Shown: positions 55,412-60,181 of the stretch, piece by piece
How the letters are laid out: each line of letters starts with the position of its first letter
Numbering within the stretch: position 1 is the stretch's first letter
Source: an uncultured delta proteobacterium
Lineage (GTDB): Bacteria > Desulfobacterota > RBG-13-43-22
Assembly (NCBI GenBank): GCA_963843145.1
Contig: CAWJJC010000022.1
Span: forward strand, 352,001 to 416,000
Length of the DNA stretch: 64,000 nt
Direction: 5' to 3'
Translations under genes and position numbers: made by a program
The notes under the pieces: generated by a model
What the model saw: only the letters and a program-made list of their open reading frames with translations
Told to the model about the DNA's origin: nothing
Database searches by the model: none

Positions 55412-56410
55412 TCATAAAGTAACATCCCTCAAAAACTTGGCCGCGTCTTCGGGAGGGGTCGGGTTAATGTAAAAACCGGATCCCCATTCAAAACCGGCAA
55501 TGCGGGTCAGTTTAGGGACTATCTCGAAATGCCAATGGTAATACTCCTGGTGGTTTTCCTTAACCGGTGAGGTGTGGAGCATGAAATTATAGGGTCGTTT
55601 ATTCAGCGCCTTATCCAGGCGTTTCAGGGATTCCGAAAAAATTTCAGCCAGGGCGCGGTTTTGAGTCTCGGTGATCTGGGTGTAATCGGCGTTATGGATT
55701 TTGGGGATGATCCAGACCTCAAAGGGTTGGCGGGGGGCGAAAGGCGCGATAACCAGGAATTCATCATTTTCGCAAACCAGTCGGATCTTCTGTTCCTGTT
55801 CCTGGCGAAGGAGGTCGCAATACACGCAGCGATCCTTATAACTGAAATATTTTTTGGAGCCGTTCAATTCTTCGGAGGCAATCTCCGGGATAACCGGGAG
55901 GGCAATTAATTGGGAATGGCTGTGCTCCAGGGAGGCCCCGGCCGAACGCCCCTGGTTTTTAAAAATAAGGATGTAGCGGAAGCGGGGATCTTTCGACAGA
56001 TCCACAATGCGGTCACGATAGGCCCGGAGGACGTCCTGGAACCTTTCCAGGGGCATGGTGGAAAGGGTCTCCTCGTGATTAGGGGTTTCGATAATTACTT
56101 CGTGAGCCCCGATGCCATTCATTTTGTCATAAAGCCCGTCGCCCAGTTTTCCTAGGTTTCCCTCAATCACCAAGGCGGGGAACTTGTTCGCCACGACGCG
56201 CAAGGTCCATCCCGGGCTATTGGCTTCCCCCCCCGCCGGCCGAAAAGCAGCAATCTCCGGTGGGGTGGTCTTTTCATTCCCGGGATCGAAGGGACAAAAA
56301 CCGCCTTTTGCCGTTTCTTCTTCCGGGGCGAAATCAAATGGTCTCTTAGCCCTTTCCGTGGCTATAATCACCCATCGTCCCACAATGGGGTCTTTGCGTA
56401 ATTCGGGCAT
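55412..56410 (-). CDS. galT: Galactose-1-phosphate uridylyltransferase-family nucleotidyltransferase
   Basis: MPELRKDPI..RWVIIA.ERAKRP, CPFDPGNE, AGASLEHSHSQ (HxH), AGFEWGSG. Confidence 0.9.
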   Translation of the reverse strand: MPELRKDPIVGRWVIIATERAKRPFDFAPEEETAKGGFCPFDPGNEKTTPPEIAAFRPAGGEANSPGWTLRVVANKFPALVIEGNLGKLGDGLYDKMNGIGAHEVIIETPNHEETLSTMPLERFQDVLRAYRDRIVDLSKDPRFRYILIFKNQGRSAGASLEHSHSQLIALPVIPEIASEELNGSKKYFSYKDRCVYCDLLRQEQEQKIRLVCENDEFLVIAPFAPRQPFEVWIIPKIHNADYTQITETQNRALAEIFSESLKRLDKALNKRPYNFMLHTSPVKENHQEYYHWHFEIVPKLTRIAGFEWGSGFYINPTPPEDAAKFLRDVTL

Positions 56411-56725
56411 TGCCTCCTCCTGATTGAAAGGGAATGAACCGTAAGGCGGTTTTAGGCCCGGTCCTCTGAGCCGTAACGATTTTCACCCCATCCCGGTTCA
56501 CTCGATTTTCTGGAATCATATTAACACAATGCAATTTTATCATTCTTCCTCCTGAAAGTATATGCTAAAACCAGAGTTTTTCCACTTGACAGTCCGGCTG
56601 CTCCCGTTTAATAACAAATTCAGAGTCTTTTGATGAATCCTCGGCCGGCTCGGCCTCCTGGACGATTTAAGAACACGGGGGGGCCGGTTAGGACCTGAGG
56701 GAAATACAGAAAGGGGCGGATAACA

Positions 56726-57406
56726 TTGAGGGAACTTTTTAAAACCCTACCCAAGGCCTTCCTGTTTTTTCTAATAACCGCGGCGCTGTTTTCTTGTCGT
56801 TCCTTCCTGCCGGCCGAAAAAGTGGTCTCTGCCCCGCCGCCCCCTTTAAAGCAGGGATTGCCGTCCTCTTTGGCCGTTCCTCCCGAGGCCGCACCCGCGG
56901 AAGATATCCCTCCCCTGGAACCTCGAAAACCGGCCGCTGTCAGGAAGCCTCCTCTGCTCCCTCCTCCTTCGATCGCTCTCTCGGAAGAATGGTTGATCGT
57001 GATTAAAAAAGGGAAACGCAAGCTTAACCTTTACCGGGATTGCCGGCTGGTTAAAACGTTTCCCATTGATCTGGGGGAAAACCCCCAGGGCCCCAAGCTT
57101 TGTCAGGGAGATATGCGGACTCCCGAGGGCTTGTATCGAGTCATCGAAAAAAAAGATCGGGGACAGACCAAATATTTTATGGCCCTGCTCTTGGATTATC
57201 CCAACGAACAGGACCGGGTGAGGCATGATTTGGCGGTCAGGAAAGGAAAAATTCCATCCGAAGCCGGGCTCGGTGGGTCAATCGAAATACATGGGGAAGG
57301 TCGAGGAGAGGATTGGACCTATGGTTGCGTCGCCCTCTATAATCAGCATATGACCGAGCTTTTTAAAAACATTCCCCCCGGCACCCCGGTCTTGATTGAT
57401 CCATAA
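56726..57406 (+). CDS. L,D-transpeptidase (YkuD) lipoprotein
   Basis: Lipobox LFSC, Pro-rich linker, GD.RTPEG.Y, IEIHG...WTYGCVAL. Confidence 0.85.
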   Translation: MRELFKTLPKAFLFFLITAALFSCRSFLPAEKVVSAPPPPLKQGLPSSLAVPPEAAPAEDIPPLEPRKPAAVRKPPLLPPPSIALSEEWLIVIKKGKRKLNLYRDCRLVKTFPIDLGENPQGPKLCQGDMRTPEGLYRVIEKKDRGQTKYFMALLLDYPNEQDRVRHDLAVRKGKIPSEAGLGGSIEIHGEGRGEDWTYGCVALYNQHMTELFKNIPPGTPVLIDP

Positions 57407-57445
57407 ATTTCTTCCCCCATGGCCTTTTCTTAGGGTCCCTCTTGC

Positions 57446-57477
57446 TTGACTAAATAAGAAGAATGATTATCATTTCA
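57446..57477 (+). promoter_or_regulatory. sigma70 promoter overlapped by a Fur-like box
   Basis: TTGACT-16-TATCAT; palindrome AATGATTATCATT at 57462-57474. Confidence 0.55.
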
Positions 57478-57501
57478 ATAAATATGTTATTGGAGGGATA
57501 A

Positions 57502-57717
57502 ATGCCGATTTACGAATATAATTGTCTAGATTGTTCTAAGACCTTTGAAAAGATTGTTTGGAATACCGAGGAGAAAGAGGTATGTTGCCCTTATTGCCAG
57601 GGGAAAAATAACCTTCGTGTTCTTTCAGGTTTTTCCAAAGGGAGCGGGGGGATCAAAGGTATTTCGGCTGCTTCCAACTGTGGTCCCTCCAGCGGCGGGT
57701 TTTCCTGAGCCCATTAA
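57502..57717 (+). CDS. FmdB-family zinc-ribbon protein; UGA at 57706-57708 possibly Sec (ends 57708 if stop)
   Basis: MPIYEYNCLDC...CPYC...LSGF...SNCGPSSGGFS-UGA-AH-TAA; SECIS-like hairpin at 57720-57736. Confidence 0.85.
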
Positions 57718-57750
57718 ACAGGAACCGTGGGTTCCTAAGGAAAAACGACT

Positions 57751-57903
57751 ATGAAGACGGTAATTTGGATGGTGGTGATTTTTGGGGCCTGGTATTTAAT
57801 CAATCGCTGGATACTGCCTAAAATGGGGGTTCCTACCTGAATGGCCCCAAACTCCTGCCAGGTTCCTGGCCGGGACAATAAAGGGGCCGATAAACCGCTT
57901 TGA
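57751..57903 (+). CDS. Small membrane protein with in-frame UGA (candidate selenoprotein)
   Basis: AAGGA RBS; MKTVIWMVVIFGAWYLINRWILPKMGVPT-UGA-MAPNSCQVPGRDNKGADKPL*; SECIS-like hairpin at 57853-57875. Confidence 0.65.
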
Positions 57904-57919
57904 TGGATCCAGGGGGATT

Positions 57920-58516
57920 TTAGGGGGATGGTTGGGCTTGGTCCTTCTTGGGCCCCTGAGCATTGAACTCATTCATAGCCCGTTCAACGCCGTCCCGGAG
58001 TATCATTTCCAAGGCCAAGCCGGCTTCCTCCACCAGTTGTTCCATTTCCGCACGCCGGCTTGCCGGGATTGTTTCCAGCACGTATACTTCCGGCGGTTGA
58101 TCTCCGGGGGGGCGTCCTACACCCAGGCGTAGTCGGACAAAAACGTTGGTTTGCAGGTGTTCGATCAGGGAAAGGACCCCTCGGTGGCCCGCTGCTCCGC
58201 CTTTGGCTACGATCCGTATTCGGCCCCAGGCCAAATCCAAATCATCGTGGACCACCACCAACCGCTCGGGGCTGCTGTGAAAATAGCGAACCCAGTGACC
58301 GACCGCCACCCCGCTTAAATTCATATAGGTCTGGGGAAGAAGGAGGTGAACTTTATGTCCCTCAATGTTTCCCTGACCGAAAATACTTTGAAATTTTTTT
58401 TGATTTAACGAAATTCGATGATTCTGGGCCAGGGTTTCAATCACCCTGAAGCCCAGATTGTGGCGGGTAAATTGATATTTTCGACCTGGATTCCCTAAAC
58501 CGGCAATCAGGTACAC
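57920..58516 (-). CDS. pth: Peptidyl-tRNA hydrolase
   Basis: GLGNPG..Y..TRHNLGF, PQTYMNLSG, VHDDLDL, GHRGV. Confidence 0.96.
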   Translation of the reverse strand: MYLIAGLGNPGRKYQFTRHNLGFRVIETLAQNHRISLNQKKFQSIFGQGNIEGHKVHLLLPQTYMNLSGVAVGHWVRYFHSSPERLVVVHDDLDLAWGRIRIVAKGGAAGHRGVLSLIEHLQTNVFVRLRLGVGRPPGDQPPEVYVLETIPASRRAEMEQLVEEAGLALEMILRDGVERAMNEFNAQGPKKDQAQPSP

Positions 58517-58530
58517 GGACGCCGCTTCCC

Positions 58531-59178
58531 CTATTCTTCTTTAGGTTTACCCTTTTTGGAAACCACTTCCACCTCAGCCGCCCCGGCCGTCGCTTCCTCA
58601 GCCGCCTTTTCCTCTATGGGCGGAACGACGGTGATTATGGTGGTTTGGGGATCGTTCAAGACCTGGATTTCTTCAGGCAATTGAAGATCTCGTACATGGA
58701 TGGAATCCCCGATATCCAGTCCGCTGATATCCACTTCAATATATTCCGGAATATTTCGGGGCAGGCAGCGAATCTGCAGATCGCGCCGGGCTTCTTGCAG
58801 CATTCCCCCTTTTTCCACGCCCTTCGCCTTTCCCAGAATCCGCAGACCCACTTCCACCTCCAGTTCCTTGGTCAGGGAAACCTCATAAAAGTCCACATGG
58901 AGGAAAGCCCGGCTGACCGGGTCCTTCTGAAGTTCTTTGAGCATGGCCGTTCTTGATTCTTCCCGTCCCTCCCCTTTTAACTGCACCTGAAAGAAGAGAT
59001 TCTCGCCGGAATGTTTTTTAAATATCTTTTCCAAGTCCATTTGTCGGACATAAAGGGAAATGGGCTGGGTTTCAGGACCGTAAAAAACAGCCGGAATTTG
59101 TCCCGACCGGCGCAAGGTTCGGGCCGGCCCCTTCCCCGATTGATTTCGGATAAATGCTTCTACCTGAATTTGTTCCAT
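58531..59178 (-). CDS. rplY: 50S ribosomal protein L25/general stress protein Ctc
   Basis: GKGPAR.LRR.G.IPAVFYG, Q.DPV...LHVDF, IGDSIHVRDL. Confidence 0.95.
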   Translation of the reverse strand: MEQIQVEAFIRNQSGKGPARTLRRSGQIPAVFYGPETQPISLYVRQMDLEKIFKKHSGENLFFQVQLKGEGREESRTAMLKELQKDPVSRAFLHVDFYEVSLTKELEVEVGLRILGKAKGVEKGGMLQEARRDLQIRCLPRNIPEYIEVDISGLDIGDSIHVRDLQLPEEIQVLNDPQTTIITVVPPIEEKAAEEATAGAAEVEVVSKKGKPKEE

Positions 59179-59239
59179 GGTAACTCCTCATCTTTTTCCA
59201 GGCCCGGGCCTGCAACCTATTATTTTTTGTTTTAATTCG

Positions 59240-60181
59240 TTAGATAAATAAAGAACTGACCGAATCTTCCATATGGATCCGCTTGATGGCTTCCCCTAAC
59301 AAAGAGGAAACCGATAAGGCCTTAATCTTAGAACATTCTTTCGCCCGGGAGGAAAGGGGAATGGTATCGGTTACCACCAATTCATTTAGAGGAGAATTTT
59401 CGATTCGCTCCAAGGCCGGTCCGGATAAAACGGCATGGGTGGCGCAGGCAGAGATTCTTTTCGCCCCCGCTTCGGCCAAGGCCACCGCTGCTTTGGTCAG
59501 GGTCCCGGCCGTATCAACCATATCGTCCAGCAAAACGGCGTTCATGTCGTTGACCTGCCCGACGATATTCATCACTTCGGAGGAATTGGGACGGTCCCTT
59601 CTTTTATCGACGATGGCGAAATTGGCATTGAGTCGTTTGGCAAAGGCCCGGGCCCGTTCCGCCCCGCCCACATCCGGCGATACCAATACAATGTTGTTCA
59701 GAAAATGCTCCCGGATGTAATTGATCAGTATCGGGGCGGCGAAAAGATTGTCCACCGGAATGTTGAAGAAACCCTGAATCTGGCCGGCGTGGAGATCCAT
59801 GGTCAAAACCCGGCGGGTGCCGGCGGCCGTAATCAGGTCGGCCACGAGCTTGGCGCTGATGGGAACGCGAGGGGCCACCTTGCGGTCCTGCCGGGCATAC
59901 CCATAATAAGGCATAACCGCCGTGATCCGTCGCGCCGAAGCCCTCCGCAAGGCATCCATGATGATCAGCATTTCCATTAAATTGTCGTTGACCGGAGAAC
60001 AGGTGGACTGCATCACAAAAACGTCCTTCCCGCGGACGTTTTCCCCGATCTCCACAAAAATTTCCCCGTCACTGAATCGTCTGACCTGGACCAAGCCCAG
60101 CGGAATGCCCAAATAATCACAGATGCTTTCAGCCAATTGCGGGTTGGAATTGCCGGTAAAAAATTTTAACTGATCGTCCAT
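59240..60181 (-). CDS. prs: Ribose-phosphate pyrophosphokinase
   Basis: [44 protein letters not shown]. Confidence 0.97.

What the first reader, a model, noticed from the sequence alone, without database searches (positions are those of the whole stretch)
57751..57903. Unannotated membrane micro-protein with in-frame UGA and SECIS-like hairpin: tandem selenoprotein operon
Seen: below the ORF-track cutoff. AAGGA RBS, a 29-aa TM segment ending LPKMGVPT, then TGA (57838-57840), then MAPNSCQVPG... Hairpin TCCT-GCCAG-GTTC-CTGGC-c-GGGA starts 12 nt after TGA, with the loop starting G-U. Two adjacent genes each having UGA plus a correctly spaced hairpin is unlikely by chance. Inference: a two-gene, possibly metal-regulated system of a soluble Zn-ribbon selenoprotein and a membrane-anchored U-x5-C selenoprotein, for redox relay or metal(loid) handling. 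I do not recognise it as a described system. No sel genes are in this window.
Basis: partly seen in the sequence, partly recalled or inferred. Interest (0 to 1): 0.85.

Follow-up and report, generated by a model that had tools for sequence, protein, structure and literature searches.

The report
Tiny membrane selenoprotein, overlooked but widespread
A 50-residue membrane-anchored protein that carries selenocysteine just after its membrane helix is real, is widespread in two bacterial phyla, is missing from the family catalogues searched, and sits beside a second small selenoprotein.

Summary
Window 57751-57903 (+) encodes a 50-aa protein: an N-terminal helix, then a conserved Sec-x5-Cys motif (UGA at 57838-57840), then a disordered basic tail.

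- **In-frame UGA is conserved.** A profile of 20 relatives matched 185 of 401 genomes sampled from the window's phylum. All 150 listed matches carry an in-frame TGA.
- **Cys forms exist.** They put Cys exactly at the UGA position, mostly in Planctomycetota.
- **SECIS hairpin.** A hairpin of at least 6 bp, with its loop starting 20-28 nt from the UGA, follows 83 of 104 distinct Sec forms and 3 of 46 Cys forms. Its stem covaries.
- **Sec machinery.** The genome has selA, selB, selD and tRNA-Sec.
- **Partner gene.** The upstream FmdB zinc-ribbon gene ends in U-A-H-stop, with its own covarying hairpin after the stop codon. Such a gene adjoins the small gene in 38 of 72 loci.

No Pfam or NCBIfam model, source name or review entry covers the small protein. 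Function is inferred. Gene neighbours (persulfide-dioxygenase/rhodanese-type genes, TauE, thioredoxin, anti-sigma factors) point to thiol/selenol or sulfane-sulfur chemistry at the membrane's cytoplasmic face. Metal regulation is not supported.

The parts
57446..57473 (+). sigma-70-like promoter (TTGACT, 16 nt, TATCAT) in front of the FmdB-U gene; contains the palindrome AATGATTATCATT at 57462-57474
   Evidence: Consensus scan, 10 of 12 matches. Relatives of the same family keep a TTGACA-type -35 element and a TATAAT-like -10 element at the same place, but not the palindrome.
57502..57717 (+). FmdB-family zinc-ribbon selenoprotein gene (71 codons plus TAA); its tail reads ...CGPSSGGFS-U-A-H
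   Evidence: PF09723 E=1.4e-12 and TIGR02605 E=9.6e-14. Read with TGA=U. 39 distinct relatives have the same C...F-x-U-x(1-2)-stop tail.
57706..57708 (+). Sec codon (UGA) of the FmdB-U gene, codon 69
   Evidence: The U column is invariant in 16 of 16 aligned relatives.
57720..57736 (+). SECIS-type hairpin of the FmdB-U gene (7 bp, loop GUG), lying wholly after the TAA stop; its 3' arm abuts the ribosome-binding site of the next gene
   Evidence: The loop starts at nt 22 from the UGA. In 36 of 39 distinct FmdB-U genes the best hairpin has its loop start at nt 20-28, and 34 of those have at least 6 bp. There are 27 distinct 5' arms. The single-sequence minimum-energy fold prefers another pairing, so the assignment rests on comparison.
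57737..57741 (+). Shine-Dalgarno-like AAGGA of the micro-protein gene
   Evidence: Read directly from the sequence; 9 nt before the ATG. Similar AGGA motifs stand before the start codon in relatives.
57751..57903 (+). micro-selenoprotein gene: MKTVIWMVVIFGAWYLINRWILPKMGVPTUMAPNSCQVPGRDNKGADKPL plus TGA stop
   Evidence: Translation. Relatives. No Pfam or NCBIfam family.
57754..57822 (+). N-terminal hydrophobic helix (residues 2-24), read as a single membrane span with the C-terminus in the cytoplasm
   Evidence: The AlphaFold2 model gives a helix at 2-24 with pLDDT about 88-89 and the rest unstructured. Net charge of the C-terminal flank exceeds that of the N-terminal flank in 114 of 150 family members. 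Topology is inferred from the positive-inside rule.
57838..57840 (+). Sec codon (UGA), codon 30
   Evidence: Aligned with TGA in all 150 listed genome matches and with Cys in 87 of the top 150 library proteins.
57856..57858 (+). codon of the conserved partner cysteine (Cys36; motif U-x5-C)
   Evidence: Invariant column in alignments A1 and A6. The spacing is x4 in 77 and x5 in 27 of 104 Sec forms. Those 104 were picked with a pattern that requires a Cys 2-9 residues after U.
57853..57875 (+). SECIS-type hairpin of the micro-protein gene (UCCUGCCAG / loop GUUC / CUGG-c-CGGGA)
   Evidence: fold. (position). (covariation in a 35-sequence subset). (a hairpin of at least 6 bp at nt 20-28 in 83 of 104 Sec forms and 3 of 46 Cys forms).
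57901..57903 (+). true stop (TGA) of the micro-protein gene
   Evidence: Relatives end within a few codons of the same point, several with TAA or TAG.

Best explanation
Window 57751-57903 is a real gene for a 50-residue, single-pass membrane selenoprotein.

**Shown by comparison**
- UGA-30 is decoded as selenocysteine with the help of a SelB-type hairpin placed about 12-25 nt downstream.
- The protein belongs to a large Sec/Cys family with the motif helix - L-P-(K/R)-x-G-x-x-T-[U/C]-M-x(3,4)-C - disordered tail. The family has no Pfam or NCBIfam model.
- The gene directly upstream (57502-57717) is a second small selenoprotein. It is an FmdB zinc ribbon whose flexible tail ends C-x(5-9)-F-x-U-x-x-stop. 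Its SECIS hairpin lies after the stop codon.
- The two genes form a conserved pair behind one promoter-like site.

**Inferred**
- The helix anchors the protein with its C-terminus in the cytoplasm.
- The Sec...Cys pair therefore sits at the inner membrane surface.
- There it cycles between selenol/thiol and a selenenylsulfide, or carries sulfane sulfur as Se-S-.
- It would thus act as a membrane-tethered redox or sulfur-relay centre.
- Its likely soluble partners are the Cys...Sec tail of FmdB-U in the window's phylum, and thioredoxin or rhodanese/persulfide-dioxygenase-type enzymes in other lineages.
For: **Identity as a selenoprotein**
1. *Coding conservation across the UGA.* 31 of 32 matches at E<0.01 and 150 of 150 listed matches have one in-frame TGA with the alignment running through it. 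185 of 401 sampled genomes of the phylum have a match.
2. *Cys homologues.* A profile search of 1.84 billion representative proteins gave 670 hits at E<=0.001. The top 150 break down as follows.
   - 87 have Cys at the U position.
   - 27 stop exactly there.
   - 21 have W and 2 have G there, which is TGA read under another genetic code.
   - 13 have something else there.
   
   Of 80 named genome loci, 79 held the motif, 33 as Sec and 46 as Cys forms, interleaved among close relatives.
3. *SECIS hairpin.*
   - The best ungapped hairpin has its loop start at nt 20-28 from the UGA in 96 of 104 distinct Sec forms, against 6 of 46 Cys forms.
   - With the added requirement of at least 6 bp, the counts are 83 of 104 and 3 of 46.
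   - G is among the first two loop bases in 94 of 96.
   - There are 58 distinct 5' arms.
   - In a 35-sequence ungapped subset, 90% of cells pair, against 68% in shuffles and 23-41% in slid controls. 7 of 8 pairs change on both sides. The covariation score is 0.662 against 0.250, reached by 0 of 500 shuffles.
4. *Machinery in the same genome.* selB 368.8 bits, selA 609.4 bits, selD 395.3 bits (itself with one TGA), and tRNA-Sec with anticodon TCA.
5. *The codon after the UGA.* It is not ATG in 19 of 104 Sec forms, and Met follows Cys in 44 of 46 Cys forms. The Met is therefore a residue, not a restart.

**Pairing with FmdB-U**
- FmdB-U is adjacent on the same strand in 38 of 72 distinct loci, in either order.
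- Its hairpins are conserved.
- In 5 genomes where it is not adjacent, an FmdB-type gene with a C-terminal U-x-x-stop was seen elsewhere in 4. One of those 4 is an atypical GGGU-A-I form.

**Function (context only)**
- In 79 mostly planctomycete loci, a rhodanese or MBL-rhodanese gene lies within 4 kb in 48. TauE does so in 27, a zf-HC2 anti-sigma factor in 26, thioredoxin in 19, and at least one of these in 60.
- One library protein fuses the module to a thioredoxin domain.
- The structure model gives one helix plus a disordered tail.
Against: **No direct evidence for Sec**
- There is no protein or RNA evidence, and no RNA run holds the stretch.
- Sec insertion rests on comparative criteria only.

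**Weaknesses in the hairpin statistics**
- The sequences compared are related to one another.
- The 35 sequences of the formal covariation test were chosen from 104 because their own best hairpin sat in that register.
- No Rfam family matched.

**selA says little**
- It was found in 371 of 401 genomes of the phylum.
- By my hand cross-tabulation, that is 174 of 185 genomes with the gene and 197 of 216 without it.
- 11 genomes with the gene show no selA at E<=1e-30. Four of these are 98-100% complete.

**The function has no direct support**
- Contexts differ between lineages. The window's own neighbours are housekeeping genes: YkuD, Pth, L25 and Prs.
- FmdB-U is adjacent in only 2 of 79 loci outside the phylum sample.
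- Only truncated forms, and no Cys form, of FmdB-U turned up in the one close-relative search.
Confidence: 0.8

Rival explanations
1. The same two selenoproteins exist, but they handle a metal or metalloid. The membrane-proximal G-x-x-T-[U/C]-x4-5-C site and the zinc-ribbon partner would bind or pass on a soft metal ion such as Hg, Cu, Zn, Cd or As at the inner membrane face, rather than doing thiol or sulfur redox chemistry.
For: - Sec/Cys pairs are good soft-metal ligands (general chemistry).
- By my recollection the motif resembles the GMTCxxC site of heavy-metal-associated domains.
- ArsR-family regulators lie near some loci (Pfam HTH_5 in L104).
- One Kuenenia-labelled locus has, by eye, an ArsA-like ATPase and a large P-type-ATPase-like ORF nearby (not checked against Pfam).
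- The partner is a zinc ribbon.
- A Fur-box-like palindrome sits in the window's promoter.
Against: - The recurrent neighbours are sulfur and thiol genes, not metal transporters: MBL plus two rhodanese domains, rhodanese with a YgaP-type membrane domain, TauE, an SQR-like flavoprotein, DsrE, thioredoxin and zf-HC2 anti-sigma factors.
- ArsR-type regulators in such clusters are, by recollection, often persulfide sensors.
- No HMA or other metal-binding Pfam domain matches.
- The palindrome is not conserved in relatives.
Confidence: 0.12
2. The micro-protein is mainly a structural or regulatory accessory subunit of a membrane transporter, for example the TauE/SafE-type exporter encoded just downstream in many planctomycete loci. 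The Sec/Cys pair would then serve as a gate or sensor rather than a relay.
For: - TauE starts within 300 nt downstream on the same strand in 18 of 79 loci. The gap is only 2 nt in three Sec-form loci.
- The TauE proteins of these loci have invariant cysteines in a loop.
- Small single-pass proteins are often transporter subunits (general knowledge).
Against: - TauE is missing from the window's locus.
- TauE clustered with none of the 72 Sec-form loci of the window's phylum.
- The family persists with very different neighbours.
Confidence: 0.06
3. The UGA is an ordinary stop. The product would be a 29-residue hydrophobic peptide, and the downstream conservation would reflect an RNA hairpin with another role or a separate tiny ORF starting at the ATG after the TGA.
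For: - TGA-ATG is the commonest arrangement: Met follows U in 85 of 104 forms.
- Public gene calls stop at the TGA: 27 of the top 150 library hits are 29-42-residue truncations.
- No expression data exist.
Against: - Cys forms are continuous ORFs with the same T-C-M-S-G-x-C motif.
- 19 of 104 Sec forms have no ATG after the TGA.
- The hairpin keeps its distance to the UGA, not to the Cys codon, and is largely lost in Cys forms.
- The genome has the full Sec machinery.
Confidence: 0.02

Closest known systems
Bacterial SECIS/SelB-dependent selenoproteins with a Sec...Cys redox pair and Cys orthologues (the class catalogued in the 2026 review PMC13188914, Table 1; I read section 7, parts 1 and 2)
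   Same: - In-frame UGA aligned with Cys in homologues.
- Hairpin immediately downstream, with G in the apical loop.
- A nearby partner cysteine.
- The genome has selABD and tRNA-Sec.
   Different: - None of the 119 listed families or subfamilies is a ~50-residue single-pass membrane protein with this motif.
- The spacing is U-x4/5-C rather than the usual UxxC or CxxU.
- No thioredoxin-like fold is predicted. The model shows one helix plus a disordered tail.
FmdB-family selenoprotein from the GOS marine metagenome (PMC2398784, passages read; listed in PMC13188914 and PMC9312934 with motif CxxU or UxxU)
   Same: The upstream partner is an FmdB zinc ribbon (TIGR02605, PF09723) and is a selenoprotein.
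   Different: - In the published form, Sec replaces a zinc-ribbon cysteine.
- Here all four ribbon cysteines are Cys in 16 of 16 aligned sequences.
- Here Sec lies in the tail, one or two residues before the stop.
'UXX-star' selenoprotein families 1 and 2 (NF041114, NF041211; names and motifs taken from the review's table only)
   Same: - FmdB-U ends U-x-x-stop in 28 of 39 cases and U-x-stop in 11 of 39.
- Its SECIS hairpin must therefore lie beyond the stop codon, and it does.
   Different: - None of 11 FmdB-U proteins scanned matched NF041114 or NF041211 (E up to 10, up to 1).
- They match only the general FmdB model.
Eukaryotic SELENOK / SELENOS (single-pass ER-membrane selenoproteins; recalled, not from a call)
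   Same: - Small size.
- One N-terminal membrane helix.
- Disordered cytosolic tail.
- Sec thought to act with a nearby Cys or a partner protein.
   Different: - No sequence relationship was detected; no Pfam family matched at E up to 10.
- Sec here sits directly after the helix (residue 30 of 50), not near the C-terminus.
- The SECIS is bacterial and in-frame, not a 3'-UTR element.
Sulfide/persulfide detoxification clusters: persulfide dioxygenase-rhodanese fusions, SQR, TauE, ArsR-type persulfide sensors (system recalled; domains shown by Pfam)
   Same: In Planctomycetota-type loci the micro-protein gene lies between an MBL-rhodanese-rhodanese gene and a TauE gene. An ArsR regulator, a rhodanese-YgaP protein, an SQR-like flavoprotein and a DsrE-domain protein lie alongside.
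   Different: - As far as I could find, such a micro-protein has not been described as part of these clusters.
- The window's own locus has none of these genes.

Membership tests
Bacterial SECIS-dependent selenoprotein (comparative criteria) | In-frame UGA with coding conservation on both sides | tested here: met
   31 of 32 matches at E<0.01 and 150 of 150 listed matches carry an in-frame TGA inside the aligned stretch. All 31 carry exactly one. In one search, 149 carry one and 1 carries two, and 4 rows list a TAA or TAG as well.
Bacterial SECIS-dependent selenoprotein (comparative criteria) | Homologues with Cys at the UGA position | tested here: met
   87 of the top 150 library proteins. 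46 of 79 named genome loci.
Bacterial SECIS-dependent selenoprotein (comparative criteria) | Stem-loop at a fixed short distance 3' of the UGA, G in the apical loop, stem kept by compensatory change | tested here: met
   A hairpin of at least 6 bp with loop start at nt 20-28 in 83 of 104 Sec forms and 3 of 46 Cys forms. G among the first two loop bases in 94 of 96. 7 of 8 pairs covary in a 35-sequence subset.
Bacterial SECIS-dependent selenoprotein (comparative criteria) | selA, selB, selD and tRNA-Sec in the same genome | tested here: met
   All are over the curated cut-offs. ARAGORN calls a tRNA-SeC with anticodon tca.
Bacterial SECIS-dependent selenoprotein (comparative criteria) | Selenium shown in the protein | not testable with these tools
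   Needs 75Se labelling or mass spectrometry.
FmdB family zinc ribbon (TIGR02605 / PF09723), upstream partner only | Match to the family model over its cut-off; two CxxC pairs | tested here: met
   51.2 bits against a cut-off of 31.3, and 47.8 bits against 34.4. C8, C11, C29 and C32 are invariant.
Published FmdB-family selenoprotein (GOS type) | Sec inside the zinc-ribbon CxxC motif (CxxU or UxxU) | tested here: not met
   All four ribbon positions are Cys. Sec is residue 69 of 71, in the tail.
UXX-star selenoprotein families 1 and 2 (NF041114, NF041211) | Match to the NCBIfam model | tested here: not met
   No match for 11 FmdB-U proteins (E up to 10, up to 1).
LULAXC-motif selenoprotein TsoA (NF045695) and the other small 'hypothetical' selenoprotein models in NCBIfam | Match of the micro-protein to any NCBIfam selenoprotein model | tested here: not met
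   The window protein was scanned at E up to 10. All 20 Sec forms of alignment A1, the window's included, were scanned at E up to 1, and 9 Cys forms plus one thioredoxin fusion at E up to 1. The only hits were chance-level ones to unrelated membrane proteins, plus thioredoxin-type models on the thioredoxin domain of the fusion.
SELENOK/SELENOS-like membrane selenoproteins | Single N-terminal membrane helix with a disordered tail | tested here: met
   Helix at residues 2-24; the rest of the model has low confidence.
SELENOK/SELENOS-like membrane selenoproteins | Sec near the C-terminus; sequence match to the family | tested here: not met
   Sec is residue 30 of 50. No Pfam family matched at E up to 10.

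The most novel reading that the evidence does not exclude
FmdB-U and the micro-protein together form a dedicated relay made of two selenoproteins. A soluble zinc-ribbon carrier with a Cys...Sec tail would exchange a selenenylsulfide, a diselenide or sulfane sulfur with a Sec...Cys site tethered to the inner membrane surface. This would be a new module for trafficking reactive sulfur or selenium. Its Cys and Sec versions would be built into sulfide-detoxification clusters (persulfide dioxygenase, rhodanese, TauE) in Planctomycetota. It would also be one of the most widespread bacterial selenoprotein families, missed so far only because gene callers stop at 29 codons.
Probability: 0.3. Interest if true: 0.8.

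Novelty: new member of a known kind. Interest (0 to 1): 0.68.

Why it matters
**For annotation**
- The gene matched 185 of 401 sampled genomes of one phylum.
- It also occurs in many Planctomycetota.
- Public collections hold it only as 29-residue stubs, as forms with W or G at the Sec position, or as unnamed Cys forms.
- The FmdB partner is likewise filed truncated at its Sec.
- Selenoproteome counts for these lineages are therefore too low by at least these two genes.

**For biology**
- A Sec/Cys switch marks the functional residue of an uncharacterised micro-protein family.
- The Cys forms sit inside sulfide/persulfide oxidation clusters and thiol-stress loci.
- This gives a concrete, testable candidate for a missing membrane-side component of reactive-sulfur handling.

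**For Sec decoding**
- The FmdB-U gene adds 39 natural examples of a bacterial SECIS hairpin that works from beyond the stop codon.

Tried and rejected
- **Rfam scan of 56000-59500:** no relevant family. All five hits were far below their gathering scores.
- **Word-indexed homologue search with the window protein:** nothing found.
- **The same tool with a Cys form and lengths 'longer':** none at E<=0.01. The one thioredoxin fusion (P0121) therefore stands alone. It comes from a single 1-kb contig.
- **RNAalifold on the MAFFT alignment A2:** no consensus structure, because MAFFT had put the hairpins out of register. I replaced this with a position-based hairpin scan and an ungapped subset.
- **Co-occurrence with selA across the phylum:** not discriminating. 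selA is present in 371 of 401 genomes.
- **Fur-box or metal-regulation idea:** the palindrome at 57462-57474 is perfect only in the window. It has 1-2 mismatches in 3 close relatives and is absent in the others. It overlaps the -10 element.
- **Complex prediction of a planctomycete TauE with its neighbouring Cys-form micro-protein:** no verdict, score 0.00.
- **ESM Atlas:** only an unnamed 'hypothetical protein' cluster at 0.84, which is a lead and no more.
- **Literature:** 'CMSGAC' gave 0 papers. 'selenoprotein + SECIS + small membrane protein + bacteria' gave 0. 'UXX-star' appears only in the review. A four-term search gave one unrelated preprint, of which I saw only the listing.
- **Close-relative search for Cys forms of FmdB-U:** only forms truncated at the Sec or frame-shifted (16 hits, 8 read).
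Full report
**What is in the window**

On the + strand, an AAGGA at 57737-57741 precedes an ATG at 57751. The frame runs 29 codons to a TGA at 57838-57840 and then 20 more codons to a second TGA at 57901-57903. Read with TGA as Sec, the product is MKTVIWMVVIFGAWYLINRWILPKMGVPTUMAPNSCQVPGRDNKGADKPL.

A hairpin with loop GUUC occupies 57853-57875, starting 12 nt after the TGA. For 57838-57890 the folding energy is -25.2 kcal/mol and z is -2.46.

The gene upstream (57502-57717) is an FmdB-family zinc ribbon (PF09723 and TIGR02605). Its frame reads ...CGPSSGGFS, then TGA (57706-57708), then Ala, His and TAA. The hairpin AGGAACC-GUG-GGUUCCU follows at 57720-57736, after the stop codon and directly before the next gene's ribosome-binding site.

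A sigma-70-like promoter (TTGACT, 16 nt, TATCAT) lies at 57446-57473.

The flanking genes are ordinary:
- a GalT-like transferase and a YkuD transpeptidase upstream;
- on the other strand downstream, peptidyl-tRNA hydrolase, ribosomal protein L25 and ribose-phosphate pyrophosphokinase.

**Is the UGA read through?**

*Coding conservation.* A six-frame search of 61 related genomes with the window protein (Sec written as Cys) gave 32 matches at E<0.01. In 31 of them the alignment ran through exactly one in-frame TGA.

The relatives share W-[YF]-x-L-N-[RK]-W-x-x-P-[KR]-x-G-x-x-[STG]-U-M-x(3,4)-C, followed by a variable basic tail.

A profile of 20 such sequences matched 185 of 401 genomes drawn evenly from the window's phylum, and 120 of 254 genera. 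All 150 listed matches contain an in-frame TGA; 48 further matches were not listed.

*Cys homologues.* The same profile was run against 1.84 billion representative proteins. It found 670 at E<=0.001. The best 150 sort as follows:

| Residue at the Sec position | Count of 150 |
|---|---|
| Cys (mostly ...G-[IV]-x-T-C-M-S-G-A-C) | 87 |
| Protein ends exactly before the Sec position | 27 |
| Trp (TGA read by a gene caller under another code) | 21 |
| Gly (same cause) | 2 |
| Arg | 4 |
| Leu | 1 |
| Ser | 1 |
| Does not fit my pattern | 7 |

A scan of one genome per species with an alignment of Cys forms returned 80 loci. Most are labelled Planctomycetota. A few are labelled Deltaproteobacteria, Myxococcales, Acidobacteriota or Geopsychrobacter. 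Of these, 79 held the motif, 33 as TGA forms and 46 as Cys forms, often in near-identical proteins.

*The Met after the UGA.* Met follows Cys in 44 of 46 Cys forms, and 19 of 104 Sec forms have Leu, Ala, Val, Ile or Gly instead. The Met is therefore a residue of one protein, not the start of a second ORF.

**The hairpin behaves as a SECIS element**

For 104 distinct Sec-form DNAs I took the best ungapped hairpin within 48 nt of the UGA.

| Measure | Sec forms | Cys forms |
|---|---|---|
| Loop starts at nt 20-28 | 96 of 104 | 6 of 46 |
| Loop at nt 20-28 and stem of at least 6 bp | 83 of 104 | 3 of 46 |

Fisher's exact test on the second row gives p about 4e-18. That figure overstates the case, because the sequences are related.

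Other features of the Sec-form hairpins:
- G is among the first two loop bases in 94 of 96.
- The commonest loops are GGA, GUC, GUU and UGGAU.
- The 96 hairpins use 58 different 5' arms.
- The loop keeps its distance to the UGA, not to the Cys codon. Forms with U-x4-C and with U-x5-C place it at the same nucleotide.

For a formal count I aligned, without gaps, the 35 of 104 sequences whose own hairpin has its loop at 27-29 or 26-30:
- 90% of cells pair, against 68% in shuffles and 23-41% when the partner is slid.
- 7 of 8 pairs change on both sides.
- The covariation score is 0.662 against 0.250, reached by 0 of 500 shuffles.

Because the subset was chosen by its register, the pairing percentage is partly built in. 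The variety of pair types is the informative part.

RNAalifold on the plain MAFFT alignment found nothing because the hairpins were misaligned. Rfam has no matching family.

**Machinery**

The same genome has the following, all over the curated cut-offs:
- selB, 368.8 bits;
- selA, 609.4 bits;
- selD, 395.3 bits, itself with an in-frame TGA;
- a tRNA-Sec, which ARAGORN confirms with anticodon tca.

selA is nearly universal in the phylum sample, at 371 of 401 genomes. By my hand cross-tabulation it is present in 174 of 185 genomes with the micro-protein and in 197 of 216 without it. Co-occurrence therefore says nothing either way. Eleven genomes with the gene lack a selA match. Four of them are 98-100% complete, and this remains unexplained.

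**The partner gene**

Of 72 distinct Sec-form loci from the window's phylum, 38 have an FmdB gene next to the micro-gene on the same strand. It lies upstream in 23 and about 130-210 nt downstream in 15. In 37 of them the tail C-x(5-9)-F-x-U is followed by one or two residues and a stop. The 38th gene (L047) is cut off by the contig end before its tail.

In an alignment of 16 of these proteins, the four zinc-ribbon cysteines, the tail cysteine, the Phe and the Sec are invariant.

In 36 of 39 distinct genes the best hairpin after the UGA has its loop at nt 20-28. Of those, 34 have at least 6 bp, and there are 27 distinct arms. The whole element lies beyond the stop codon.

Public databases hold the close relatives as 68-70-residue proteins cut at the Sec. 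Where they are named at all, the name is 'putative FmdB family regulatory protein'.

In five near-complete genomes where the two genes are not adjacent, an FmdB-type gene ending U-x-x-stop was found elsewhere in four. One of these is an atypical GGGU-A-I form.

Outside the phylum sample, adjacency is rare, at 2 of 79 loci.

**What it might do**

The AlphaFold2 model gives a confident helix at residues 2-24 and no structure beyond it. The flank after the helix carries more positive charge than the N-terminus in 114 of 150 family members. By the positive-inside rule, the Sec...Cys site then lies at the cytoplasmic face of the membrane. This fits a cytoplasmic partner such as FmdB-U.

The window's own neighbours are uninformative. 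The 79 mostly planctomycete loci are informative. Pfam on representative neighbours shows this gene order in L104:
1. ArsR-type regulator
2. rhodanese with a YgaP-type membrane domain
3. metallo-beta-lactamase fold with two rhodanese domains (the architecture of persulfide dioxygenase-rhodanese fusions, by recollection)
4. micro-protein
5. TauE/SafE exporter
6. SQR-like flavoprotein
7. methyltransferase with a DsrE domain

A CoA-disulfide-reductase-like flavoprotein with a rhodanese domain lies upstream in a Lacipirellula chromosome (L097).

| Neighbour type | Adjacent, same strand, within 300 nt | Anywhere within 4 kb |
|---|---|---|
| Rhodanese-type gene | 23 of 79 (upstream) | 48 of 79 |
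| TauE | 18 of 79 (downstream) | 27 of 79 |
| zf-HC2 anti-sigma factor | 16 of 79 (upstream) | 26 of 79 |
| Thioredoxin | 3 of 79 (upstream), 4 of 79 (downstream) | 19 of 79 |
| At least one of the above or an SQR-like flavoprotein | n/a | 60 of 79 |

The loci are related to one another, so the counts are not independent.

Further hints:
- One metagenomic protein fuses the helix-plus-motif module to a thioredoxin domain.
- In the window's phylum, loci without FmdB-U show, by eye, thioredoxin, ArsR, DUF302-like or CcdA/TlpA-like neighbours. These were not checked against Pfam.

Together this points to thiol/selenol or sulfane-sulfur chemistry rather than metal handling. It is context, not proof.

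**Regulation**

The palindrome AATGATTATCATT at 57462-57474 resembles a Fur box (recalled). It coincides with the -10 region. It is perfect only in the window, has 1-2 mismatches in three close relatives, and is absent elsewhere. The promoter itself is conserved in the family. I therefore do not support metal regulation.

**Comparison with what is known**

No Pfam or NCBIfam model matches the Sec or the Cys forms. The only source name on record is 'hypothetical protein'.

The 2026 review of prokaryotic selenoproteins lists 119 families or subfamilies. I read its Table 1 in section 7, parts 1 and 2. None fits the micro-protein. FmdB appears there only with Sec inside the zinc ribbon, which is not the case here.

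The 'UXX-star' families share the C-terminal position of Sec with FmdB-U, but their models do not match it.

Architecturally the micro-protein recalls eukaryotic SELENOK and SELENOS (recalled). It has Sec in a different place and no detectable sequence relationship.

I cannot exclude that 'hypothetical protein GOS_A' of the 2008 GOS paper is this family, because its alignment is in a figure that is not held.

**Verdict**

This is a genuine, widespread Sec/Cys micro-protein family that I did not find described in the sources available. In the window's lineage it is paired with a second small selenoprotein.

| Claim | My confidence |
|---|---|
| It is a selenoprotein | about 0.93 |
| It works as a membrane-tethered redox or sulfur relay | about 0.5 |
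| FmdB-U is its direct partner | about 0.4 |

Noticed in passing
window 57720-57741: The 3' arm of the FmdB-U SECIS hairpin ends one base before the AAGGA ribosome-binding site of the micro-protein gene. Relatives of the same family keep the arrangement of hairpin followed by TAAGGA. SelB binding or ribosome passage at the first gene might therefore affect initiation at the second.
   Followed up: no
own genome, L023 (C27:447576-448499, - strand): The genome's selD match itself contains one in-frame TGA. This fits a Sec-containing selenophosphate synthetase.
   Followed up: no
library proteins P0011, P0016, P0018, P0020 and others: Among the top 150 library hits, 21 have Trp and 2 have Gly at the Sec position. 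This suggests that gene callers translated these contigs under a code that reads TGA as an amino acid. Four hits have Arg there (P0038, P0055, P0096, P0140); the cause is unknown.
   Followed up: partly
genomes G063, G132, G155, G164 (98-100% complete): These genomes have a TGA-containing micro-protein match but no selA match at E<=1e-30. Seven further, mostly less complete genomes show the same.
   Followed up: no
L106 (Planctomycetales MAG), about 1435-1600: This Cys-form gene still carries the hairpin typical of its Sec-form relatives: GTGCGGT, loop GTC, ACCGCAC. It looks like a recent Sec-to-Cys change.
   Followed up: no
alignment A7 (TauE proteins next to the micro-protein gene): These TauE/SafE proteins have invariant cysteines in a loop region, C138 and C152 of the L104 protein.
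   Followed up: no
P0121 (171 aa, one 1-kb metagenome contig): A natural fusion of the helix-plus-C-M-S-G-A-C module to a full thioredoxin domain, PF00085 E=2e-30.
   Followed up: partly
L184 (G276:C1:366443-369589): An FmdB-type zinc-ribbon gene whose frame reads ...C-R-K-G-G-G-U-A-I and then TGA. This is a G-x-G-U tail like the motif the review gives for UXX-star family 2.
   Followed up: no
window 57462-57474: A perfect 6-1-6 palindrome, AATGATTATCATT, overlaps the -10 hexamer of the promoter. It is not conserved in relatives.
   Followed up: yes
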